A stretch of DNA of 61,988 nucleotides, counting the filler, from Basidioascus undulatus (taxonomy: Eukaryota), in assembly GCA_000826855.1 (NCBI GenBank). It is 6 parts of 6 records of this genome, joined end to end, with 100 filler letters (N's around TTAATTAATTAA, not from the genome) between each part and the next. Parts side by side here need not be neighbours in the genome. Positions count along the whole stretch, not along the records: positions 20,724 to 30,966 come from JTLS01001157.1; 5 more parts are not named here. The stretch is one strand, 5' to 3'. Both the position numbers and the translations under genes were made by a program. Below, one piece after another: positions 10,264 through 53,710 of this stretch (position 1 is its first letter; each line of letters starts with the position of its first letter). Below the pieces are notes generated by a model. That model worked only from the letters and a program-made list of their open reading frames with translations, ran no database searches and was not told the origin of the DNA.

Positions 10264-10363
10264 NNNNNNNNNNNNNNNNNNNNNNNNNNNNNNNNNNNNN
10301 NNNNNNNTTAATTAATTAANNNNNNNNNNNNNNNNNNNNNNNNNNNNNNNNNNNNNNNNNNNN
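10264..10363. other. Artificial contig linker (N44-TTAATTAATTAA-N44)
   Basis: Exact 100-bp spacer with stops in all six frames. Confidence 0.98.
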
Positions 10364-19441: not shown

Positions 19442-20623
19442 ATGGTCGCCCCGATAGACGCTTCCGAGCCCGAGCCGGACTTCGAAATCATCTTCAACGG
19501 GACCGGTGCGTCTCCTTTTCCGTTGGGAAGCCAAGCGCCTTGCTTACCCTTCTCCCTTTCCTAGGCACCTCCTCCGCGGTCCCCCTCGTCTCGTGCCTGA
19601 CCGACCCAGCACAGTCGTGCGAGACCTGCACGTCCACGCTCCGCCCCAGCGGCGCGCGCAACGTCCGGCGGAACACGGGCGCGGTCGTCCGCGCTGTGGG
19701 CGCGGACGGGGTGAAAAAGACGATCTTGATAGACTGTGGTGGGTGTGCTTCTCCGCTCACCCCTACTCGCTCCTCGCGAGGAGACTGAGAGGAAGGGGGC
19801 TTTGGTTTCTAGGCAAGACGTTCTACACCTCCTCGCTCCTCACGTTTCCCCGTTATGGGCTGCGCAAGATCGACGCCGTTCTGCTCACGCACGCGCACGC
19901 GGACGCGACGAACGGGCTGGACGACCTGAGGGGGTGGACCCTCTCGGGTGCGATCCAGAGCAGCATCGATATTTATTGTGATCGCGCGACGATGGACTCT
20001 GTGGGGGCGGCGTTTCCTTACCGTGAGTATGGAATTGCTGGGCGGGGAGAGGCGAGGGAGGTGGAGAGGTGGACGCTGATGAGAGGAGGGGGGAGGGTAG
20101 TGGTGGATAGAAGTAAGGCGACGGGGGGAGGGGACGTCCCGGCGTTCAATTGGCGCTTGATCGAGAGCGGGAATGCTTTTGAGATTGCTGGGATTCCGAT
20201 CACGCCTGTGTCTGGTGCGTCTTCTCCTTGTGCCATCGGAGAAGATCGTCTTGGAGACTCAAGGGGGTGCTTCGGGAGAACAGTACATCATGGCTTCGCC
20301 GCACCAGCCTCGTCCACCGCCTCCGCCCCCTTCCCCTGCCTCGGCTTCCTCTTCCCCCCGCACGCCGCCTATTTCTCCGACGTCTCGCACATCCCCCCCG
20401 AAGCATGGACCATCATCTCGCGGTCCTTCACCGTCCACTCTCCCCCCACAAACGGCACCTCCTGCTCCTCTTCCTGCTCCTCCTCCTGCTCCTCCTGCTC
20501 CTGTTCCTGCTCCTGCTCCTCCTGCTCCTCCCCAGCACCTTCCCAGCCCAACGGCTCCCCCGCCCCTCCATCCCTCTCCTCCCTCTCCCTCTCCCTCTTA
20601 AAGGCGGCTTACCGTATCCCCCG
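19442..20623 (+). CDS. Metallo-beta-lactamase-fold hydrolase (PhnP-like), 3'-truncated
   Basis: IIFNGTG|TSSAVP, RNVRRNT, ILIDCG|KTFY, LLTHAHADATNGLDDLR (HxHxD motif), VHHG, YFSDVS. Confidence 0.88.
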
Positions 20624-20723
20624 NNNNNNNNNNNNNNNNNNNNNNNNNNNNNNNNNNNNNNNNNNNNTTAATTAATTAANNNNNNNNNNNNNNNNNNNNN
20701 NNNNNNNNNNNNNNNNNNNNNNN
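20624..20723. other. Artificial contig linker
   Basis: N44-TTAATTAATTAA-N44. Confidence 0.98.
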
Positions 20724-20822: not shown

Positions 20823-22772
20823 ATGGCTTCCTTCATTGCCTTTGCGAGAAGCGGTCGCGAGTCCCAAGAGCACGAGCTCGCTGTGCTCGCGCAGCCTCGG
20901 CGACATGACGACGACGACGTGCGACACAGCGAGGCCGACGACTTCGACTTTGACGACAACTCTCCCCTCCTGCCCACCCAGAGCGACCCCCACGATGCCA
21001 ATCCACCTTTTCTCCGTTGCCCCTCCCTCCACTCCTCAGTCCGCTCCAACCTTTCCCGCCGGAAACGTATTGTGTTCCTTGTTTCCCTGACCGTCTTCAC
21101 AACCTTCACTGCAATCGTATACTTCGGATTCCCCTCCACACTGCATCTATACCTCGCCCTCCTCCTTATAACCCTTCCCATATCCTTTATCATTGACCTC
21201 TACTCCCTCGGCATCTCCCACGACTGGCCGAGCTGGACCCGCTCTCGCACAGCGTGGTTCGCCCTCTCGGCGCTTAGCGTCTCCTTTCTCTCCCTGCAGC
21301 CCCTCCTCCTCTCCTCCCCCCTCGATGCCACCGCCTCCGTCCCTCCCCCAAACCAAACCTACTACATCGCCTCGAACCTCTACAACTCGGCGTCTCTCCT
21401 GCCGCACTACAGCTCCGCCCTCCTCTCCCTCATCTCCGCGCTCGGGGAGGAAAACGTCTTCGTCTCCATCTACGAATCGAACTCCAAAGACCGCACGAAG
21501 GAGCTCCTGGCCTCTCTCGACCGCGAGCTTGGCGCTCGCGGCGTGAGAAGGCGGATCAAGGCGGACAATGCGGGCGAGGGCCTGAGGCGGGACAAGGGCC
21601 ACTGGAGCTCCACGCTCGACCGAATCAACTACCTCGCTCGCGTGCGGAACGAGGCCCTGGAGCCGTTGTACGAGGGAGTGGACGGTCTGGAAGGCGGGGA
21701 ATTCGCCCGCGTCGTCTGGCTCAACGACGTCTACTTCGACTGGAGTGAGTGATCCCTGGCGCAGTCGCGCTTTCACAGTACACTGCCCTTCCCAGACGTG
21801 CTCACACGCCCTTCTGACAGAATCTGTCCTCCACCTCCTCCACACGCACAACGGGTCCTACGACCTTGCCTGCGCGTTCGACTATATCCCTCTGGGGTTC
21901 TACGACACGTTTGTACCGCTCCCCCTTCACCATCACGCTGTACGTCCGTGCCTTCCCTCACGGCTGAGCTCGCCTTCCCCTCTCCTATCATAGATGGGTC
22001 ACCCGAGATCTCTGCGGGGACCGCGTTAAACCCCTTTGGCCGTACTTTGCGCACGCGGATGACGTCACGCTCCTGGCGAGAGACGAGCCTATACCCGTCA
22101 ACAGCTGCTGGAACGGCATTGCAGCGTACGACGCAAGATGGTTCGTGCCCCGCAGCAACACTTCCAGTACGATCTTACCTGACCAAAGTCTTTGCCACGC
22201 TTACTAACCATTTCATCCTATTCAACAGCGGAAAACTCGTTTCAGCGCTTCAATTCAACACCTCCTAGCGCGACCGACCCTGCCGGCAACTCGACCGTCG
22301 ACCCCTCCCCCACCTTTCCCCTCCGCTTCCGCTCCGAGGAACTGTGCAACTCCTCTGAGTGTCTTCTAGCCTCCTACGACATGCACCGTCTCTCGTCGCC
22401 AGCGCGCCCCAGGATCTTCATGAACCCCCTCGTAACCGCCAGTGCGTCCGCCCCCCTCCCCGCTTCCCCGGCCCTCCCGCCCCCTCTCCCGAACATCTTC
22501 ATCGTCCTTCGTCCCTCCACGACCTCCCTGACCCCAAAGCTTCCTTTAACCTTTGGTCGGAAACAGCGTACGACTACCCCTCGCACCTCCTCTACACGCA
22601 CATCCTCCGCTGGCGCATCGTGGCACCCTGGCGGGCGGTCTGGCGGGATCTGATATCCTACCGGCTGTTCGGGCGCCTGACGGACGTGGGGAGGAAGAGG
22701 CCCCAGTGTAAGGAATTGTTTGCCCCAGGATGGGCGGAGGCGCCGGTGGGGAGGGTGTGTCCGGATGGTTGA
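20823..22772 (+). CDS. CAP59/CMT1-family alpha-1,3-mannosyltransferase (GT69) with N-terminal TM helices
   Basis: YYIASNLYNS, NVFVSIYESNSKDRT, RINYLARVRNEALEPL, VVWLNDVYF, YDLACAFDY, FYDT|WVTRD, VNSCWNG, SECLL...DMH, IFMNP. Confidence 0.9.
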
Positions 22773-22951
22773 AGAGGCGGCGAAGGACGGAGGGGGTTTG
22801 TCGCAAAGTGGGCTCTTCTCGAACGGATCAAACTTTCTGATGTACACGGACTTGACTTATACCCTCTCGCTTTATACCCGGGGCATGAACGATGTTCTTG
22901 GTTGTATAGCTCGCATTTGGCCTTCGCAGCATCGAGGATGCTCTGCCGTGT

Positions 22952-23145
22952 TTACAAAGATAGACGCATTACACGGCAAGTGAGAAGGATGTTGCTCTTG
23001 TTGCGGTTGTAAGCTTCCAGCTCCTCCCCATCGGGCAAGCCGAAGAGCTCCGCGCGGGGTGCAGCGCCTTGGATGGCCAAGCTCAGAATCCGCGAGATGA
23101 GCTCAGGCGGGAGGTCGAAAAGAGGGAACGAAGTCACTGTAGGGT
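22952..23145 (-). pseudogene. F-box-like fragment
   Basis: FPLFDLPPELISRILSLA followed by an NILLTCR motif. No clear start or continuation. Confidence 0.35.
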
Positions 23146-24132
23146 CCCAAAGATATGAATTGCTGTTTAGGAACGGGTGATCGAAAGGGCACGCGCACTG
23201 ATTTGATGAGGCGGCTGGGATGGTGGACGTCGAGAGGGAACCTGGACGGAACGTGGGACGGCCCTCTGCCGACGTGGCTCTGAGTCGTCCTCCTGCTCCA
23301 GAGTACATTTCTATGATATGTCGATCGGGAAAAACATGCCAAAAAATCAATGATTTCCCTCGCACTGCATCAGAATCATAAACCGTGGATCCACACACCG
23401 AGTGAATGGTTGCTCACGCGTAATACGCATGGTGTACGAGGGAATCGAATGCCGTAAGGAGATGTGGGGGAGGGTTGAGTCGGTCCGAACAAAGTATTAT
23501 CACCCTAAAGGGGGTGCATTGGGGACTTCTGCTGAGCCGAAGTGGATCGACTGGCACTTCGCGAACGTGAACAGCGACTTCACTGAACGGGGCTGCCGCT
23601 GATCATCCGCCCCCTTCAGTCGGCTCGTCTTGAAAATCGGTAAGAAAACTCTTGTCCATGTAAACACATCTGAAGCGCACACATTAACAGCGGGATTTGC
23701 GATGCACGGCGAGTATGTTCATTCTTGGGCAGGGTTCCAGCGCGTCTTCATCCGCATTCAACTGGCCCCATTAATCTGTAGCCTTAATAATTCTTCTCCT
23801 ATGATCTCTCCTTGTCGGTGTCAATTGGTCATTGACTGCCAGGGGGCTCCGCTTCGGGTTGTTCTAGCAAAACACACGCTGCGTGTCCTTCCGACACAAA
23901 CAAGCCCTAAAGCATGTCAGTCTTCGTCTTGTTTCTCATAAGAGGGGCCTCGGGGGTCGGCCTAACCACCATAAGTTTTTCGCGGGTCTTGTGGCGACCA
24001 GCTAACCGACTGAGCAGCAGGTGGCCGGTCCGCCCAGCATGCCTCCGCGCCATCGCGGCTCGCCTCGCTGGCTGACCGCAGCCCCGAGCTAACCAACACA
24101 CAGGTGCCTCAGTTTGTGAAGAGTCGCCTCTT

Positions 24133-24144
24133 GGGAATAAAAGG
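24133..24144 (+). promoter_or_regulatory. TATA-like element upstream of the putative ncRNA
   Basis: GGGAATAAAAGG followed by a pyrimidine-rich tract. A similar GGGATAAAAG lies upstream of the phytase-like gene on the minus strand at ~36844-36853. Confidence 0.35.
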
Positions 24145-24169
24145 CGGCTCTTGACCTGTGCGGAACCCC

Positions 24170-25080
24170 CATCTCACAGCGTCCTTCTCGCAACACCTCG
24201 CCTCGCCTCGCTTGGGGCGGGGCGGGGACTGTACCTCGCTCCTCACTGCTCAAGCTCTTCACCTTGGCTTCGTTGCGAGATTTACGAACGCAAAAATCCC
24301 ACCCTCCCATACACTGATACCCCCCGCACCATCCTCGCCGCCGACATCTGAACGACCCGACGATATGGCTCGTCTACTTAATGTTCGTCTGCACTTTCGC
24401 CTTTAGCAAGACAGTGTACGTAAAGACGGACACTGACTCTTATCCAGTTCCATAGTACTGCCATATAGCCCATACATCCCTAATACGCCGCTGTCGATAC
24501 CCACCGTTTCTCGCGATACCCTTGTGCGTTCCTTCCTCGCTCACAGCTTACCTCCAGGCGCGACTGACGCTGTGTTGAGGAGGTACAGAATCACCTAATC
24601 AAAGAGTATACCCCATTCATTAGATGATACCCACTTGTACGTCCTAGACCACGTTCCTGCTCGTCGCAACCTCGACTGACGCAGCTTTTGGAGGTGCAGA
24701 ATCGCCACCTTCATCCGTCCACATTTATATTGTTTCTGTAATAGAGTCTCTCCCTTGGCATTGATACCCTGTCACGCACGTACCCCGTCACGTACACACT
24801 AGACATTGATCCCCTCCTTGTAACGGGTAACACCTGTTATACAGTGGAGACAACAGCTTGTCCTTCATTTCTTCTCTCGGGCACCTCGATGCTTTTAAAT
24901 AATATACCCTCCCTTCGATCCTCTTCGCATTATACCCCTCTTTTTATCATACCCCTTCCCGCATTATACCCCTTCTGCATTATACCCCTGCTGCATTGTA
25001 CCCCTGCTGCATTGCACCTTCACTGCATCCCACCCCTCCTGCATTATACCATCCCCTAATTATATACCCTAATGCATATT
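24170..25080 (+). ncRNA. Putative spliced lncRNA / micro-ORF transcript with 12 AUACCC motifs
   Basis: Three canonical introns (24383-24447, 24524-24588, 24637-24699; donors GTTCGT/GTGCGT/GTACGT, CTGAC branch points, CAG acceptors). The first-AUG ORF is only 12 codons. Dense same-strand ATACCC motifs. Confidence 0.5.
24927..25050 (+). repeat. ~16-bp degenerate tandem repeat GCATTATACCCCT(nn)
   Basis: gcattatacccctc..., gcattataccccttct, gcattatacccctgct, gcattgtacccctgct, gcattgcacc, gcattatacc. Confidence 0.85.
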
Positions 25081-25453
25081 TTATTTGTCCATACATATCC
25101 GGCCCTGTCCTGGAAGACGGATGTCCCAGTTTACACGAGAGTCACAATGCCCTGCTCTCCTGCGTCCATCGACTCGTCCCTTCTAGAGAGAGTATCGCGT
25201 TGCGCTCTTCTCCCTCCCTCCACCAGCATTAGTGCTTGTGCGTTTCGCACTGGGCTGTGATGGACACCTCCATCAAGGAACGGCTCTCGACCCTTCACCA
25301 GCAGCAATGAACGATTATCAAGAACAAGACCTATGTAACTAGATCAACACATGTCCCTTTTAACAGGCTCGCAGCATTCCGAAGACTCAGACAGAGGGAG
25401 CATCCGTTAACATACCCGGATCGAATCAGATGAGCATTCTGGCAATGCAGCCT

Positions 25454-27342
25454 TTATCGCCTCTCGCCTACTCCCTTCTCGACCGCCCCGCCAGCTCTGC
25501 CCTCAGTCTCCTCGAGCTCTTCCGATGCGAGCCCGTCCCACGGTTCCGTCCCAAGCTTCCTGATTACCAACCAAGCGGGAATAACTGCGACGCCCCACAC
25601 CCCGAAGTTGATGGCGCTTGCGCCCTGCAGCGTCCATTTCGTCGACGTGATCCCGTAAGAGACAGCCTGCCCAGCGGACTCGACGCCGCGGACGATCGCG
25701 GATATGCGCACGAGGTTGGCCGGTTCGGTGTACAGGGTCGAGACGATCCAGTATGTGAAGTTGTAGAGGAGCTGGAACCAGGTCGTGATGAGTATGTAGA
25801 GCACGAAGCCGCGGCCGAAGCCTGGTGTGGACCAGTCGAGAAGGGGTTTTGTTCGGTCATACTCGTGCTGCACAGTCGTCTGCATAAGTCCCCCATAGTC
25901 CTTGGGATCCTTGGTACATTGGCTCACCTGGATCACTTGCGAGTAGACCCACCACGCGCCTGAACCGGTGTACAGCGCGATAAAAGCGGCCTGGGCACGA
26001 AAGTGAATCCTGTACTTTTTCAGATCGAGGAAGTACTGCAGTGAGAGAGACACTTGCTCAGCCTACCTTTCGAGCAGGGAGTGAATCTCCACACTTCACG
26101 CACCCCTAGTGCAAAATTGACAATAATGCAAGTCCAAGCAGAAAGGAAGGACACAAGCGCGCGAGCTCGAACAGTGAAGTAGTCTGTCCGAGTAATTTCA
26201 TCAGCCTCTCTACTCTTCACAGCGACGTGATGCATACCGGTGAGGTAAGTCCCGGTAAATGCCTCAGAGTACGCCGAGTTGACGATGAGAGGTATCAAGC
26301 AAAGAACCTCCTTCGTCCTCAACAGCCGCCACATCTCGCGCAGCTCCTCCCTCGCGGTCATGTCGACGTAGAGCCGCACAGGTGTGTTGTCCGTGCGCTG
26401 GACCTTCTCCGGCGGAGAAAGAAGGGCAGCGAAAAGTGGTCCGCTGCACTCTGGAGGAGAGTCATGAGCACCGTGCAGATTGTTGTCGGACACAACATCC
26501 CATGCCCACGCACGCAGCGAGATGAAAACGAGATAGGTCTTGTAGCCCACCGCGCCCCGCTCATCCCGCTTGGAGTTCAGCCCGAGGTTGATAGCACCGC
26601 TGGAGGGTGCATATATCTTAATTAAGTTTTTGGAAAGGAAGGCGCCAGAGCTAGACTCACCCTACCATCTGTCCCGTAACGCGGTAGGCGAGCCAGTACG
26701 ACAGTAACCGTGCTCTCCGGTGTCTCTCTGGGTAAGACATGGCGATGGCTGCTTCAGACTGATAATCGAAGGAGTAATAAGTCTCCGTCCCAACTCATTG
26801 TCAATCCCTTACCATCCAAAATATACCAGCGCTGCCTTCGCCCAGTGTGCTTCAGCAAGTTGAGCAGCGAGCTGTCGCGGATAACTGACCAAACGCCGCA
26901 GCATGCCGCTCCGAACAGCACGAGCCATTCTGTCCCAAAGCGGAGGTTGCAGTACAGCCCAGCGGAGAAGACCGAGTAGCCGAGGGTGCCGAGCATGAGG
27001 GTATACTTGATCCCGATGAGTCGAACGAGGATGGGGCTGAAGGTGCAGGAGAGCACCATCAGGCCGAAGGTTAGGGAGTTTCCGGCATTCACGAGGTAGG
27101 GCTTCTGGGCGCCGCCTGCACCAAGACTGTATGTTAAAGGTAGGAGAGTTCAGCACTTTGGAGCATGGGAGTGGGGAGTGAAGGAAGTACGAGTTCATTG
27201 CCCCCCACAAGCCAGGCGCAAGGAACGAGCAGATGCCGAGGATTGTTATGTTCATGACCGTTCCTCTGAACCAGATTCGTTTGGGAACGGCAAGCTCGGG
27301 ATGCACACCGGAAGATGTGCAAACCGCCGCTGCACCAGGCAT
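25454..27342 (-). CDS. UNC-93-like MFS transporter
   Basis: ILGICSFLAPGLWGAMNS|LGAGG, LMLGTLGYSVFSAGLY, YFTVRARALVSFL, YWIVSTL, RISAIVRGVESAGQAVSYG. Multiple TM segments. Confidence 0.88.
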
Positions 27343-30966: not shown

Positions 30967-31066
30967 NNNNNNNNNNNNNNNNNNNNNNNNNNNNNNNNNN
31001 NNNNNNNNNNTTAATTAATTAANNNNNNNNNNNNNNNNNNNNNNNNNNNNNNNNNNNNNNNNNNNN
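30967..31066. other. Artificial contig linker
   Basis: N44-TTAATTAATTAA-N44. Confidence 0.98.
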
Positions 31067-41308: not shown

Positions 41309-41408
41309 NNNNNNNNNNNNNNNNNNNNNNNNNNNNNNNNNNNNNNNNNNNNTTAATTAATTAANNNNNNNNNNNNNNNNNNNNNNNNNNNNNNNNNNNN
41401 NNNNNNNN
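41309..41408. other. Artificial contig linker
   Basis: N44-TTAATTAATTAA-N44. Confidence 0.98.
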
Positions 41409-51649: not shown

Positions 51650-51749
51650 NNNNNNNNNNNNNNNNNNNNNNNNNNNNNNNNNNNNNNNNNNNNTTAATTA
51701 ATTAANNNNNNNNNNNNNNNNNNNNNNNNNNNNNNNNNNNNNNNNNNNN
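51650..51749. other. Artificial contig linker
   Basis: N44-TTAATTAATTAA-N44. Confidence 0.98.
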
Positions 51750-51943: not shown

Positions 51944-52646
51944 ATCGCTGGTGTGAGAAGTCCGACTCGAGACGATAAGCGATGTTGGCAGGGGGACGTT
52001 CAGACCCGCTTGTCGTAGCAGAGAATGAGCGGGAGTCTATGATTTTGAAGAACAGCACTCACCTGAGGCAAATTATGTGCGACTGGAGGAGCACAGCGAG
52101 CGTGGAAGAAGACAATGGTCGGCGGTCAAGCAAGAAGACCGTCCCCAAGCGAGTCACGCCCGCTCAGTCGCTGACGCAAAGTACTCGCCTGCCGCCTGCC
52201 GCGCGGCACAGGCACAGGCCCTCCAGACCCACACACTTTCCTTCACAGCTTCAATGCCACCGTCCGTTCTTCAATATTGAACGAGAGCAAGAAGGTACAA
52301 GAAGGACGATCCCGGAGGCATCAGCAAGGAATCAGCACCGAAGCAACGGTCATGCTCATTCGTGCAGCGCCGGGGCTTGCGTTGAATGCCCTCCTGACCA
52401 TTGAGCATCGGCTCTACAGCCTCACGCCCGGCGCACCACGCATACATCAGGAGACGCGGGCAGATAGACAGCGATAGTAATAGATCATTAATTCGTAAAG
52501 ATGCAAGAGGTGCGCGCGATCGCGCTTTTGGCAGATGGTGGGGGTATCGTACAAGATGCAGCCATGACAACAGGAGTGCAGGAGGATAATGAGGTTCCGC
52601 AAAGAAACTTATCCGGTGAAGGAGAAGAAAGTTCAGGGAGGGGAAT

Positions 52647-53710
52647 CTATGCGGAGGGCGCGGGCTCGACGGGCTTGTCCTGCGCAGCGTCGCGCGCAGC
52701 GAGCTCGGCCTCGCGACGCTTCTTGTCAAAGTTCCTCTTCATGACGAACTGTTGTAATGCACGACGGTCAGCGACGGCGCAACAAAGGAGAAAAGGTAAA
52801 GCGAGTACGCACGTAGTCCTTGTGCAACCCGCACTCCGTCTTCGCCTTGTTCGCCCACCGCCCGCTGCGCTCGGACTCGTCGCCGTTGCTCGAGCCGGGG
52901 ACGGCGGTGGAATGCCAGTCGCCGATGGACTTATAGCCCTTGTCGAGGAGCGCGTTGTATGGCACGCCGTTCGCGTCAATGTAGTCCTTGACGTCCTTGA
53001 ACGTCCAGTTCGCGAGCGGATTGACCTTGACGAGGCCGGTCTCGTCCACCTCGACAGCCTTGATGGACGCGCGGTCCGCGCCTTGGGATTTCCGGCGGCC
53101 AGTCAGGACGGCGAGGACGTTCAGCTCGTCGTAGGAGCGGCGGGAAGGCTCGACCTGAAAGAGGACGAAAAGAAAGTCAGAAAAGCCGAGACAGACTTGT
53201 AGTGGAGGTGCGGTGGGTGAAAAGAAGACGCACCTTGACGACGTAGTCGTACGTGTCCTCGTCCGTCTTCCACAACTCCGGACCGTACATCTCCTCAAAC
53301 TGCGCCGCGTTCGACACACCGAACGGGGCGTAGACGTGCAGGGGCGCGTCGTACTTCTCGGCCATGCGCTTGGCAAGGTCGAGCGTCTCCTGGAAGTGGT
53401 AGAGGGTGTCGAGGAAGATGAGGGGGACGAGGTGCTTCTGGCCGCGCTGCTGCGAGATCTTGGAAATCATGTCGACGGCGGCCGTGCCGGTGAGGCCGAA
53501 CGCGGTCGTCTGGTAGAGGCCGGGGAGGTTGTCGATCGCCCACTCAAGGATCTCCTGGGGCGCGGCGTCGGCGAGGCGGGCGTTGATGGACACGAGCTCG
53601 GACTCGGAGATGGAGATCTTGGAGGGGACGGTGCGAGAGGTGGAGAGCAGCGAGGCTGAGTCGCTCGTCGTCTGCGTGATGGGGACGGGAATGGCGACCG
53701 AGGCGGACAT
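52647..53710 (-). CDS. MET16: Phosphoadenosine phosphosulfate (PAPS) reductase
   Basis: LYQTTAFGLTG, IFLDTLYHFQET, YDYVVK|VEP, TGRRKSQGADR, KVNPLANW, YNALLDKGYKSIGDWHST, ERSGRW...KTECGLH. Confidence 0.96.

What the first reader, a model, noticed from the sequence alone, without database searches (positions are those of the whole stretch)
24130..25080. Spliced, apparently non-coding transcript packed with AUACCC motifs: candidate Khd4-type RNA-binding-protein decoy lncRNA
Seen in sequence: a TATA-like element (24133), a pyrimidine-rich start region and three textbook 63-65 nt introns (24383-24447, 24524-24588, 24637-24699). The first-AUG spliced ORF is only MARLLNFHSTAI*, and another frame is open for ~60 codons but has no AUG. 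Exact ATACCC occurs 12 times on the + strand (24317, 24497, 24516, 24608, 24627, 24764, 24904, 24932, 24949, 24966, 24982, 25064), plus near-variants. There are none on the - strand and none inside the introns; chance expectation in ~750 bp is well under one. Established: the multi-KH protein Khd4 of Ustilago maydis binds AUACCC and affects mRNA stability. Multivalent decoy RNAs exist elsewhere (S. pombe meiRNA-Mmi1, mammalian NORAD-Pumilio). Inference: this locus may titrate or scaffold a Khd4 orthologue. I know of no such RNA described in basidiomycetes.
Basis: partly seen in the sequence, partly recalled or inferred. Interest (0 to 1): 0.85.

Follow-up and report, generated by a model that had tools for sequence, protein, structure and literature searches.

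The report
Intron-split non-coding locus packed with AUACCC
A short stretch between two genes of a basidiomycete fungus looks like a spliced RNA gene that encodes no protein and carries twelve copies of a six-letter signal that, in the corn smut fungus, marks messenger RNAs for destruction by one RNA-binding protein, so it may soak up or report on that protein; whether it is made as RNA could not be checked.

Summary
There are 12 exact ATACCC on the + strand at the stated coordinates and none on the - strand. The expected count is 0.2-0.9, and no other 1-kb stretch of the window has more than 3.

About half of the sites come from one 16-nt tandem array. The 6 sites left after removing the array and a duplicated exon are still far above chance (0 of 5000 simulations).

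Internal evidence favours a real spliced, non-coding transcript:
- The three introns use the same GTNCGT/CTGAC/YAG signals as two homology-confirmed introns elsewhere in the window.
- G is depleted in the exons (11%) but not in the introns (26%).
- A duplicated exon-intron module has kept only the motif pair and the splice signals.
- No isoform has an ATG ORF longer than 62 aa.
- The motifs are predicted to be single-stranded.

A CAP59-like gene lies 1.4 kb upstream and has two ATACCC just after its putative stop. U. maydis CAP59 is a published Khd4 target with two 3'UTR AUACCC.

Not testable here: transcription, conservation in relatives, a Khd4 orthologue, binding, and decoy versus decay-substrate function.

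Verdict: a plausible new variant of a multivalent RBP-platform lncRNA, unproven. Interest 0.6.

The parts
24136..24143 (+). A/T-rich AATAAAAG, the only TATA-like element upstream of the putative start; weak
   Evidence: Read. It is not a canonical TATAAA, and its role is inferred.
24170..24382 (+). Putative exon 1 (5' end unknown). It has a C/T-rich start region, ATACCC at 24317 and ATG at 24365
   Evidence: The 5' boundary is a guess.
24383..24447 (+). Intron 1, 65 nt: GTTCGT ... CTGAC ... CAG
24448..24523 (+). Exon 2. It holds the stop of the 12-aa micro-ORF (24466-24468) and two ATACCC 19 nt apart (24497, 24516)
24524..24588 (+). Intron 2, 65 nt: GTGCGT ... CGACTGACGC ... GGAGGTACAG
   Evidence: Its 5' splice site and branch site are the same as in the true PAPS-reductase introns.
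24589..24636 (+). Exon 3, a paralogue of exon 2, with two ATACCC 19 nt apart (24608, 24627)
24637..24699 (+). Intron 3, 63 nt: GTACGT ... CGACTGACGC ... GGAGGTGCAG
24700..25100 (+). Exon 4 (3' end approximate). It is G-poor (11.5% G), almost unstructured, and holds 7 ATACCC
   Evidence: MFE is -53.5 against -136 +/- 19 for 30 control windows.
24923..25050 (+). 16-nt tandem array, 7.9 copies, consensus CTTCTGCATTATACCC. The ATACCC part decays towards the 3' end while TGCAT is kept
25073..25100 (+). A/T-rich stretch where the G-depletion ends; putative 3'-end formation region
   Evidence: sliding G counts; inferred.
22859..22879 (+). Two ATACCC 15 nt apart, about 90-105 nt after the putative stop (TGA 22770-22772) of the CAP59-like gene on the same strand. 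They are a likely cis-target of the same factor
   Evidence: with the U. maydis parallel. The stop codon is not confirmed by homology.

Best explanation
The locus is an independent Pol II gene on the + strand. It makes an RNA of about 0.75 kb with three introns that is non-coding, or encodes only a 12-aa micro-ORF.

Its exons are kept G-poor and therefore single-stranded. They display 12 exact and about 9 one-mismatch AUACCC sites. The RNA acts as a multivalent platform for a KH-type single-strand RNA-binding protein, most likely the orthologue of U. maydis Khd4.

Because Khd4 binding triggers decay, the RNA would be both a preferred substrate and a competitor, as meiRNA is for Mmi1. When induced, it would draw the protein away from mRNAs that carry one or two sites, such as the neighbouring CAP59-like mRNA, and so raise their stability.

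Shown: motif enrichment, strand bias, splice-signal match, exon-restricted G depletion, lack of coding capacity, predicted accessibility.

Inferred: transcription, splicing, the identity of the protein, titration.
For: - Motif excess: 12 against 0.23-0.94 expected, and 6 against 0.54 after removing the array and one duplicated exon, with 0 of 5000 simulations reaching 6.
- In the 8 non-array sites only the hexamer is invariant. Position -1 is G or T and the flanks are random.
- One-mismatch variants number 9 on + against 2 on -.
- The introns use GTNCGT + CTGAC + YAG at 63-65 nt. The two homology-defined PAPS-reductase introns use GTGCGT + CTGAC + YAG at 79 and 64 nt.
- G is 60/525 in exons 2-4 against 50/193 in the introns, Fisher p = 6e-6. 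For the interleaved part alone, p = 6e-4.
- Exon2+intron2 and exon3+intron3 are diverged duplicates. They keep only ATACCC-N13-ATACCC, CTTGT|GTNCGT, CGACTGACGC and GGAGGTNCAG|AATCNCC.
- In all 8 splice isoforms the first ATG ORF is 12-13 aa and the longest is 62 aa. The 104-aa open frame has no homologue.
- Exon 4 MFE is -53.5 against -136 +/- 19 (n = 30; weakest control -106). Motif unpaired probability is 0.83 against 0.59 overall.
- Khd4 binds AUACCC, mainly in 3'UTRs, and destabilises mRNAs (PMC10450656, sections read).
- Homologues are stated for C. neoformans and C. albicans (PMC3798556 passage).
- U. maydis CAP59 is Khd4-bound with 2 AUACCC in its 3'UTR. The window's CAP59-like gene also has 2 after its putative stop.
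Against: - No transcript evidence of any kind is available.
- No relative could be found to test conservation.
- A Khd4 orthologue was not looked for, because no genome is held and I had no query sequence.
- The one-gene tree puts the organism near Wallemia, outside the Ustilaginomycotina. Conservation of Khd4 specificity is therefore an extrapolation over a deep split.
- Four motifs lie inside one array and two more at its edges, and tandem arrays carrying this motif arise readily. At least 121 unrelated ATACCCC arrays turned up in metagenomes.
- Array units lose ATACCC towards the 3' end, so not every copy is under selection.
- Six AUACCC copies in a reporter 3'UTR lowered its protein output more strongly (supplement passage). 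Together with the paper's finding that Khd4 binding destabilises mRNAs, this argues against the high steady-state level that a pure sponge needs.
- The strict intron-pattern scan discriminates only weakly: 18 on + and 12 on - in the window against 8.3 +/- 2.6 per strand in shuffles.
Confidence: 0.35

Rival explanations
1. The transcript is real, but the motifs act only in cis. It is an extremely unstable RNA, either a regulatory lncRNA whose transcription matters or the mRNA of the 12-aa micro-ORF. Its level is set by AUACCC-dependent decay, possibly helped by NMD, because the micro-ORF stops upstream of two introns. It is a target of the factor, not a decoy.
For: Khd4 binding to 3'UTR AUACCC destabilises mRNAs. 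Six copies in a reporter 3'UTR lowered its protein output more strongly than one copy, even at basal Khd4. The micro-ORF ends at 24468, upstream of introns 2 and 3. Eleven of the 12 motifs lie downstream of the ATG, as in a 3'UTR.
Against: Twelve sites are far more than in known targets, where the maximum was 4 per mRNA in the 67 of 201 rows that I read. The 12-aa peptide has no recognisable feature. It is hard to see why a duplicated motif pair would be conserved if one or two sites suffice for decay.
Confidence: 0.22
2. There is no functional RNA. A minisatellite and an old local duplication spread an ATACCC-containing unit through intergenic DNA, and the splice-like signals and G-poverty are by-products of that repeat history.
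For: Four motifs lie inside one 16-nt array and two more at its edges. Four others lie in a duplicated module. Unrelated ATACCCC arrays are common in metagenomes (at least 121). The array decays at its 3' end. No homologous sequence was found anywhere.
Against: The non-array sites share nothing but the hexamer. In the duplicated module the spacers have randomised while the two motifs and exactly the three splice signals survived. The G depletion switches at the predicted exon/intron borders. The reduced set is still 6 against 0.54.
Confidence: 0.2
3. The RNA is real and multivalent, but the reader protein is not a Khd4 orthologue. One candidate is a PCBP/hnRNP-K-like KH protein that reads the C-rich ACCC(C/U) cores. 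Another is a Whi3-like RRM protein that reads the UGCAU copies of the array. Both could also bind side by side, as PUM and SAM68 do on NORAD.
For: TGCAT occurs 6 times on + within 24976-25073 and is kept where ATACCC has decayed. Whi3 binds UGCAU, and CLN3 mRNA carries five such sites (PMC13160123 passages). The NORAD units combine PREs with SAM68 sites (PMC5828396 passages). TACCCC (8) and ACCCCT (6) are also enriched. The C-rich preference of PCBP-type KH domains is recalled and comes from no call.
Against: All six TGCAT come from one array, so they count as one event. The dispersed sites conserve the full AUACCC including AUA, not just the C-run. AUACCC is the one motif with a documented reader in this phylum.
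Confidence: 0.1
4. The stretch is not a gene of its own. It is either the distal 3'UTR or read-through part of the CAP59-like gene 1.4 kb upstream on the same strand, or a DNA-level element, for example G-runs on the - strand acting on termination of the convergent UNC93-like gene.
For: The strand is the same as that of the CAP59-like gene, which itself carries two motifs. The ORF between them (22955-23413, -) has no Pfam support even at E <= 1. Long-loop G4 patterns occur on the - strand at 24935-25004.
Against: The region 23400-24130 has ordinary composition (27% G) and no motifs. A 2.3-kb 3'UTR with three introns would be very unusual for a fungus (general knowledge). No G4 with loops <= 7 is present on either strand. 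The array lies 404-531 nt beyond the UNC93-like stop. The dispersed motifs and + strand introns are not explained by a - strand element.
Confidence: 0.06

Closest known systems
Khd4-AUACCC mRNA-decay regulon of Ustilago maydis (PMC10450656; Vollmeister 2009, not held, known only from citations)
   Same: The hexamer is identical and lies on the sense strand of non-coding transcript parts. The phylum is the same. A CAP59 family gene has two copies after its stop in both organisms.
   Different: Known sites sit in the UTRs of protein-coding mRNAs, with 1-4 per mRNA in the 67 of 201 target rows read. Here 12 sit in one 0.75-kb RNA without a coding region. The published analysis used annotated mRNAs extended by 300 nt, so it could not have seen such a locus.
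meiRNA (sme2) of S. pombe, decoy and substrate of the YTH protein Mmi1 (PMC4077057)
   Same: It is a fungal lncRNA that carries numerous copies of a hexanucleotide decay motif (UNAAAC) otherwise found in target mRNAs. It is itself degraded through that motif and lures the protein away (passages).
   Different: The protein family (YTH) and the motif differ. It is nuclear, forms a dot at its own locus and needs Mei2. None of this is known here, and the present locus is spliced.
NORAD lncRNA sequestering Pumilio in mammals (PMC5828396)
   Same: It is built from repeated units, with 'more than a dozen consensus' sites for a decay-promoting RBP plus a second RBP site per unit. Here the array unit pairs AUACCC with UGCAU.
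   Different: It is about seven times longer, unspliced and animal-specific. Sequestration is experimentally shown for NORAD and not here.
Whi3-CLN3 multivalent RNA-protein condensates in Ashbya (PMC13160123)
   Same: It has clustered short single-stranded motifs (five UGCAU) in a fungal RNA that drive multivalent binding. UGCAU occurs 6 times in this array.
   Different: CLN3 is a protein-coding mRNA. The UGCAU copies here are a single tandem-repeat event.

Membership tests
Khd4-type AUACCC cis-element | Exact AUACCC on the transcribed strand, enriched over chance | tested here: met
   There are 12 on + and 0 on -, against 0.23-0.94 expected. The transcribed strand is inferred from the introns.
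Khd4-type AUACCC cis-element | Location in a UTR or non-coding part of a real transcript | not testable with these tools
   No RNA run was listed and no genome or annotation is held.
Khd4-type AUACCC cis-element | A Khd4 orthologue (multi-KH, conserved KH3-4) encoded in the genome | not testable with these tools
   No genome is held and no Khd4 sequence is available from any tool. A review passage states only that homologues exist in C. neoformans and C. albicans.
Khd4-type AUACCC cis-element | Motif use shared with known Khd4 targets | tested here: inconclusive
   The CAP59-like gene has 2 sites after its putative stop, as does U. maydis CAP59. The PAPS-reductase 3'UTR site here has no U. maydis counterpart: 0 motifs in UMAG_02942. 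That is n = 2 genes, and the CAP59-like stop is not homology-confirmed.
RBP-decoy lncRNA (meiRNA/NORAD type) | No protein-coding capacity | tested here: met
   The first ATG ORF is 12-13 aa and the longest is 62 aa in 8 of 8 isoforms. The 16-nt repeat period is not a multiple of 3. The motif falls in all three frames. There is no homologue and no Pfam hit.
RBP-decoy lncRNA (meiRNA/NORAD type) | Many accessible copies of the motif found in the RBP's mRNA targets | tested here: met
   There are 12 copies with a predicted unpaired probability of 0.83.
RBP-decoy lncRNA (meiRNA/NORAD type) | Expressed, binds the RBP and relieves its targets | not testable with these tools
   This needs RNA-seq, CLIP or EMSA, and deletion.
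RBP-decoy lncRNA (meiRNA/NORAD type) | Motifs conserved while the spacers drift | tested here: inconclusive
   Met for the internal paralogues, exon 2 against exon 3. No orthologous locus could be fetched.
Spliceosomal introns of this genome | GTNCGT 5' site, CTGAC branch site 11-21 nt before YAG, length about 60-80 nt | tested here: met
   The locus introns match the PAPS-reductase introns of 79 and 64 nt, which restore an open frame homologous to 4 of 4 tested relatives.
Plain minisatellite | All motif copies explained by head-to-tail copies of one unit | tested here: not met
   TRF finds one array at 24923-25050. Eight sites lie outside it, with unrelated flanks.
Known RNA families (Rfam 15), including snoRNA hosts and telomerase RNA | Match to a covariance model | tested here: not met
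   There are 0 matches at E <= 1 in 23000-26000. The introns are too short for snoRNAs. No 1.5-repeat telomere template is seen on reading.

The most novel reading that the evidence does not exclude
A dedicated, spliced 'super-substrate' RNA with 12 AUACCC sites sets the free concentration of a conserved Khd4-type decay factor. It would switch a whole mRNA regulon, including the conserved target CAP59 next door. This would be the first RBP-titrating lncRNA in Basidiomycota and the first known upstream regulator of the Khd4 regulon. A second motif in the array (UGCAU) would allow co-recruitment of a Whi3-like protein into one RNP granule.
Probability: 0.18. Interest if true: 0.82.

Novelty: new variant of a known kind. 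Interest (0 to 1): 0.6.

Why it matters
Khd4 is the only RBP of basidiomycete fungi with a defined hexamer code and regulon. Nothing I found in print says how its activity is tuned. The word searches for AUACCC and Khd4 and the main text of the regulon paper, which holds none of the words lncRNA, non-coding or noncoding, mention no non-coding partner.

A natural RNA with three times more sites than any target row I read would give a concrete and easily mutated handle on that question. It would also extend the meiRNA/NORAD principle, in which a decay factor is held in check by a repeat-built RNA that is also its substrate, to a third lineage and to KH proteins.

The CAP59 parallel suggests that the AUACCC code is older than the smuts. 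This is testable by counting stranded motifs in the 3'UTRs of basidiomycete genomes.

Tried and rejected
- Whole genome: none is held. Genome-wide density ranking and a Khd4 search were therefore impossible.
- RNA runs: none was listed. The single search is spent, so read laying could not be used.
- Rfam: no match.
- Synteny through the UNC93-like neighbour in metagenomes: 415 pattern hits, none a relative.
All 121 were checked by blastn against 23400-25500 and gave no hit. They are unrelated tandem repeats.
- Homologue searches: nothing for the 104-aa open frame or the 58-aa upstream ORF 23426-23599.
- Earlier findings of this scan: nothing relevant.
- The ESM Atlas did not resolve the phylum.
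- A codon-usage classifier trained on 1280 codons failed on untrained real genes, so it was discarded.
- The strict intron-pattern scan is only about 1.5-2 times above shuffles window-wide, so it is weak alone.
- Placing the other 19 ATACCC relative to genes by ORF geometry was too ambiguous to count.
- Ideas rejected on reading the sequence:
  - Pheromone precursor: no CaaX, the peptide ends ...STAI.
  - snoRNA host: the introns are 63-65 nt and have no C box.
  - Telomerase RNA: three CCCTAA but no 1.5-repeat template.
  - Canonical G4: none with loops <= 7.
- Vollmeister 2009 (PMC2779690) is not held. Its data on orthologues and KH3-4 could bear on the orthologue claim.
- Of Dataset 1 of PMC10450656 I read parts 1-2 of 6 only.
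Full report
OBSERVATION. Exact ATACCC occurs 12 times on the + strand between 24317 and 25069 and never on the - strand of 24130-25080. The whole 62-kb window has 31 matches, against 13.6 +/- 3.7 in 100 dinucleotide-preserving shuffles, and none of the shuffles reaches 31. ATACCC is the most over-represented hexamer of the locus, at 12 against 0.23 expected from window-wide hexamer frequencies. A first-order Markov simulation trained on the locus's own exons is conservative, because those exons contain the motifs. It still gives a mean of 0.94 and a maximum of 5 in 5000 runs. No other 1-kb window on either strand holds more than 3.

HOW MANY INDEPENDENT EVENTS. Tandem Repeats Finder reports a 16-nt array at 24923-25050 with 7.9 copies, 73% matches and consensus CTTCTGCATTATACCC (families). 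Four exact motifs lie inside it and two sit at its edges. Exon 2 + intron 2 and exon 3 + intron 3 are a diverged duplication. I removed the array and one duplicated exon. That leaves 6 motifs in 562 nt against 0.54 expected, and 0 of 5000 simulations reach 6. The eight sites outside the array share nothing but the hexamer: position -1 is G or T, and the other flanking columns are mixed. One-mismatch variants number 9 on + and 2 on -. The claim that no motif lies in an intron is true but weak, because (758/951)^12 is about 0.07 by my arithmetic.

IS IT A SPLICED GENE. I could not test transcription. No genome is held and no RNA run was listed. Four lines of internal evidence favour a real spliced transcript on the + strand.
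- Splice signals. The three introns are 65, 65 and 63 nt long. They have GTTCGT/GTGCGT/GTACGT, a CTGAC branch site 11-21 nt before the end, and YAG. I defined two true introns of this genome in the PAPS-reductase gene from tblastn with four relatives, the sequence, and a join that restores one open frame ending in TAG. They are 79 and 64 nt long, and both read GTGCGT ... CTGAC ... YAG.
- G depletion. It follows the predicted borders. Exons 2-4 have 60 G in 525 nt (11%), the introns have 50 in 193 (26%), and the window average is 28%. Fisher p is 6e-6, and 6e-4 for the interleaved part alone.
- The duplicated modules. The spacers have randomised. What survives is ATACCC-N13-ATACCC, CTTGT|GTNCGT, CGACTGACGC and GGAGGTNCAG|AATCNCC. 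These are the motif pair and exactly the three splice signals.
- The - strand. It shows no intron-like pattern here.
One caveat applies. My strict intron pattern gives 18 + and 12 - hits in the window against 8.3 +/- 2.6 per strand in shuffles, so it is a weak classifier on its own.

CODING CAPACITY.
- The first ATG (24365) opens MARLLNFHSTAI* when spliced and 13 aa when unspliced.
- Across all 8 combinations of intron removal, the longest ATG ORF in 24100-25300 is 62 aa.
- The repeat period of 16 is not a multiple of three, and the motif falls in all three frames.
- The 104-aa stop-to-stop frame has no homologue and no Pfam family.
- Rfam has no match at E <= 1.

PHYSICAL PROPERTIES OF THE RNA. 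Because it is G-poor, exon 4 (401 nt) folds to only -53.5 kcal/mol. Thirty random 401-nt windows of the same DNA give -136 +/- 19, and the weakest is -106. The antisense strand gives -76. In the 738-nt spliced form, the motifs have a mean unpaired probability of 0.83 against 0.59 for all positions. This suits a single-strand-binding domain such as KH.

SURROUNDINGS.
- Upstream on + lies a CAP59-type mannosyltransferase gene. PF11735 matches at E = 8e-37, 8e-8 and 9e-16 over three frames. Its putative stop is TGA 22770-22772.
- Two ATACCC follow at 22859 and 22874.
- Next comes an unsupported - strand ORF at 22955-23413, with no Pfam hit at E <= 1. My first thought that it is F-box-like was recall only.
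- About 700 nt of ordinary composition follow, and then the locus.
- Downstream, an UNC93-like gene converges on the - strand and stops at 25454. Its stop lies 404-531 nt from the array.
- A 58-aa + ORF at 23426-23599 has no homologue.

TAXON. The PAPS-reductase exon finds 589 proteins at E <= 1e-20, and the best 120 are listed. Of the 46 rows that carry an organism name, 44 are, to my knowledge of those genera, basidiomycetes of the Ustilaginomycotina, Pucciniomycotina, Tremellomycetes and Wallemia. The other two are a fern record and a mucoromycete. Identity is at most about 72%. I built a one-gene ML tree from the window protein and 28 of those 46 named rows, leaving out 18 named rows and all unnamed ones. 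It groups the window with Wallemia (98/96). It places it outside the Ustilaginomycotina (100/99), Pucciniomycotina (98/97) and Tremellomycetes (93/91) clades. The organism is therefore a basidiomycete, but probably far from Ustilago. One gene is thin evidence.

LINK TO KHD4. From PMC10450656 (sections and passages; supplements):
- Khd4 recognises AUACCC in vivo, mostly in UTRs and early in 3'UTRs, and destabilises the mRNA.
- Six tandem copies in a reporter lowered its protein output more strongly, even at basal Khd4.
- The analysis used annotated gene models extended by 300 nt.
- The main text contains none of the words lncRNA, non-coding or noncoding.

In Dataset 1 (201 Khd4-bound mRNAs) I read 67 rows. 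The largest total per mRNA was 4. [quoted passage not shown] Dataset 2 gives it log2FC 0.63 with padj 1.4e-9. The window's CAP59-like gene also has two motifs just after its putative stop. This suggests that the AUACCC code and one of its targets are shared. The suggestion rests on one gene family and an unconfirmed stop.

A second probable 3'UTR site lies 99 nt after the PAPS-reductase stop (52542, - strand). It has no counterpart in U. maydis, where UMAG_02942 has 0 motifs. A review passage states that Khd4 has homologues in C. neoformans and C. albicans (PMC3798556). I could not check for an orthologue here.

MECHANISM. I commit to the following reading at 0.35. The locus is a small spliced non-coding gene whose G-poor exons hold 12 accessible AUACCC. 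It serves as a multivalent platform for a Khd4-type KH protein. Binding means decay, so the RNA is at once the best substrate and a competitor. meiRNA relates to Mmi1 in the same way: it has numerous UNAAAC motifs, is itself a target and acts as a decoy (PMC4077057).

The main rivals are:
- a purely cis-regulated, hyper-unstable transcript (0.22);
- repeat history without function (0.20);
- another reader protein (0.10), since the array unit also holds UGCAU, the Whi3 site (six copies), much as NORAD units pair PUM and SAM68 sites;
- CAP59 read-through or a DNA-level element (0.06).

NOVELTY. Full-text searches for AUACCC (38 papers), Khd4 (24 papers) and lncRNA/basidiomycete/RBP/sponge turned up no such RNA. 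Passages of a fungal lncRNA review (PMC8113380) did not either. That review lists meiRNA as the fungal decoy case. The principle is known, while the protein family, the motif, the phylum and the intron-split build are new. I therefore rate it a new variant of a known kind, with interest 0.6. The score is held down by the complete lack of expression and conservation data.

Noticed in passing
window 22859-22879 (+): Two ATACCC lie 15 nt apart, about 90-105 nt after the putative stop of the CAP59-like mannosyltransferase gene. U. maydis CAP59 (UMAG_11017) is a published Khd4-bound mRNA with exactly 2 AUACCC in its 3'UTR.
   Followed up: partly
window 52542-52547 (-): One ATACCC lies 99 nt after the TAG stop of the PAPS-reductase gene, in a G-poor 3'UTR, and is preceded by CTGCAT as in the array unit. 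The U. maydis counterpart has no AUACCC.
   Followed up: partly
window 24976-25078 (+): TGCAT occurs 6 times on + and is retained in the array units where ATACCC has decayed. CCTAAT occurs 4 times in the locus against 0.14 expected. These are possible second and third motifs.
   Followed up: partly
window 10264-10363, 20624-20723, 30967-31066, 41309-41408, 51650-51749: Pairs of 44-N runs separated by 12 bases recur every ~10.34 kb. This looks like masking rather than biology. One pair interrupts the junction between the lactamase_B_2 gene and the CAP59-like gene.
   Followed up: no
window 52646-53644 (-): In a one-gene ML tree the PAPS reductase groups with Wallemia (98/96), outside the sampled Ustilaginomycotina, Pucciniomycotina and Tremellomycetes clades. 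No hit exceeds about 72% identity, so the organism seems poorly sampled.
   Followed up: partly
L016, L026, L028, L046, L074, L084, L107 (metagenome loci): These are long one-stranded ATACCC(C)-containing tandem arrays (23-66 copies) in unrelated metagenome contigs of varied G+C. They have no similarity to the window locus, and their nature was not examined.
   Followed up: no
window 20430-20600 (+): A Ser/Cys-rich simple repeat (SSCSSSCSS...) in an open frame lies at the 3' side of the lactamase_B_2-domain gene, just before a masked block.
   Followed up: no
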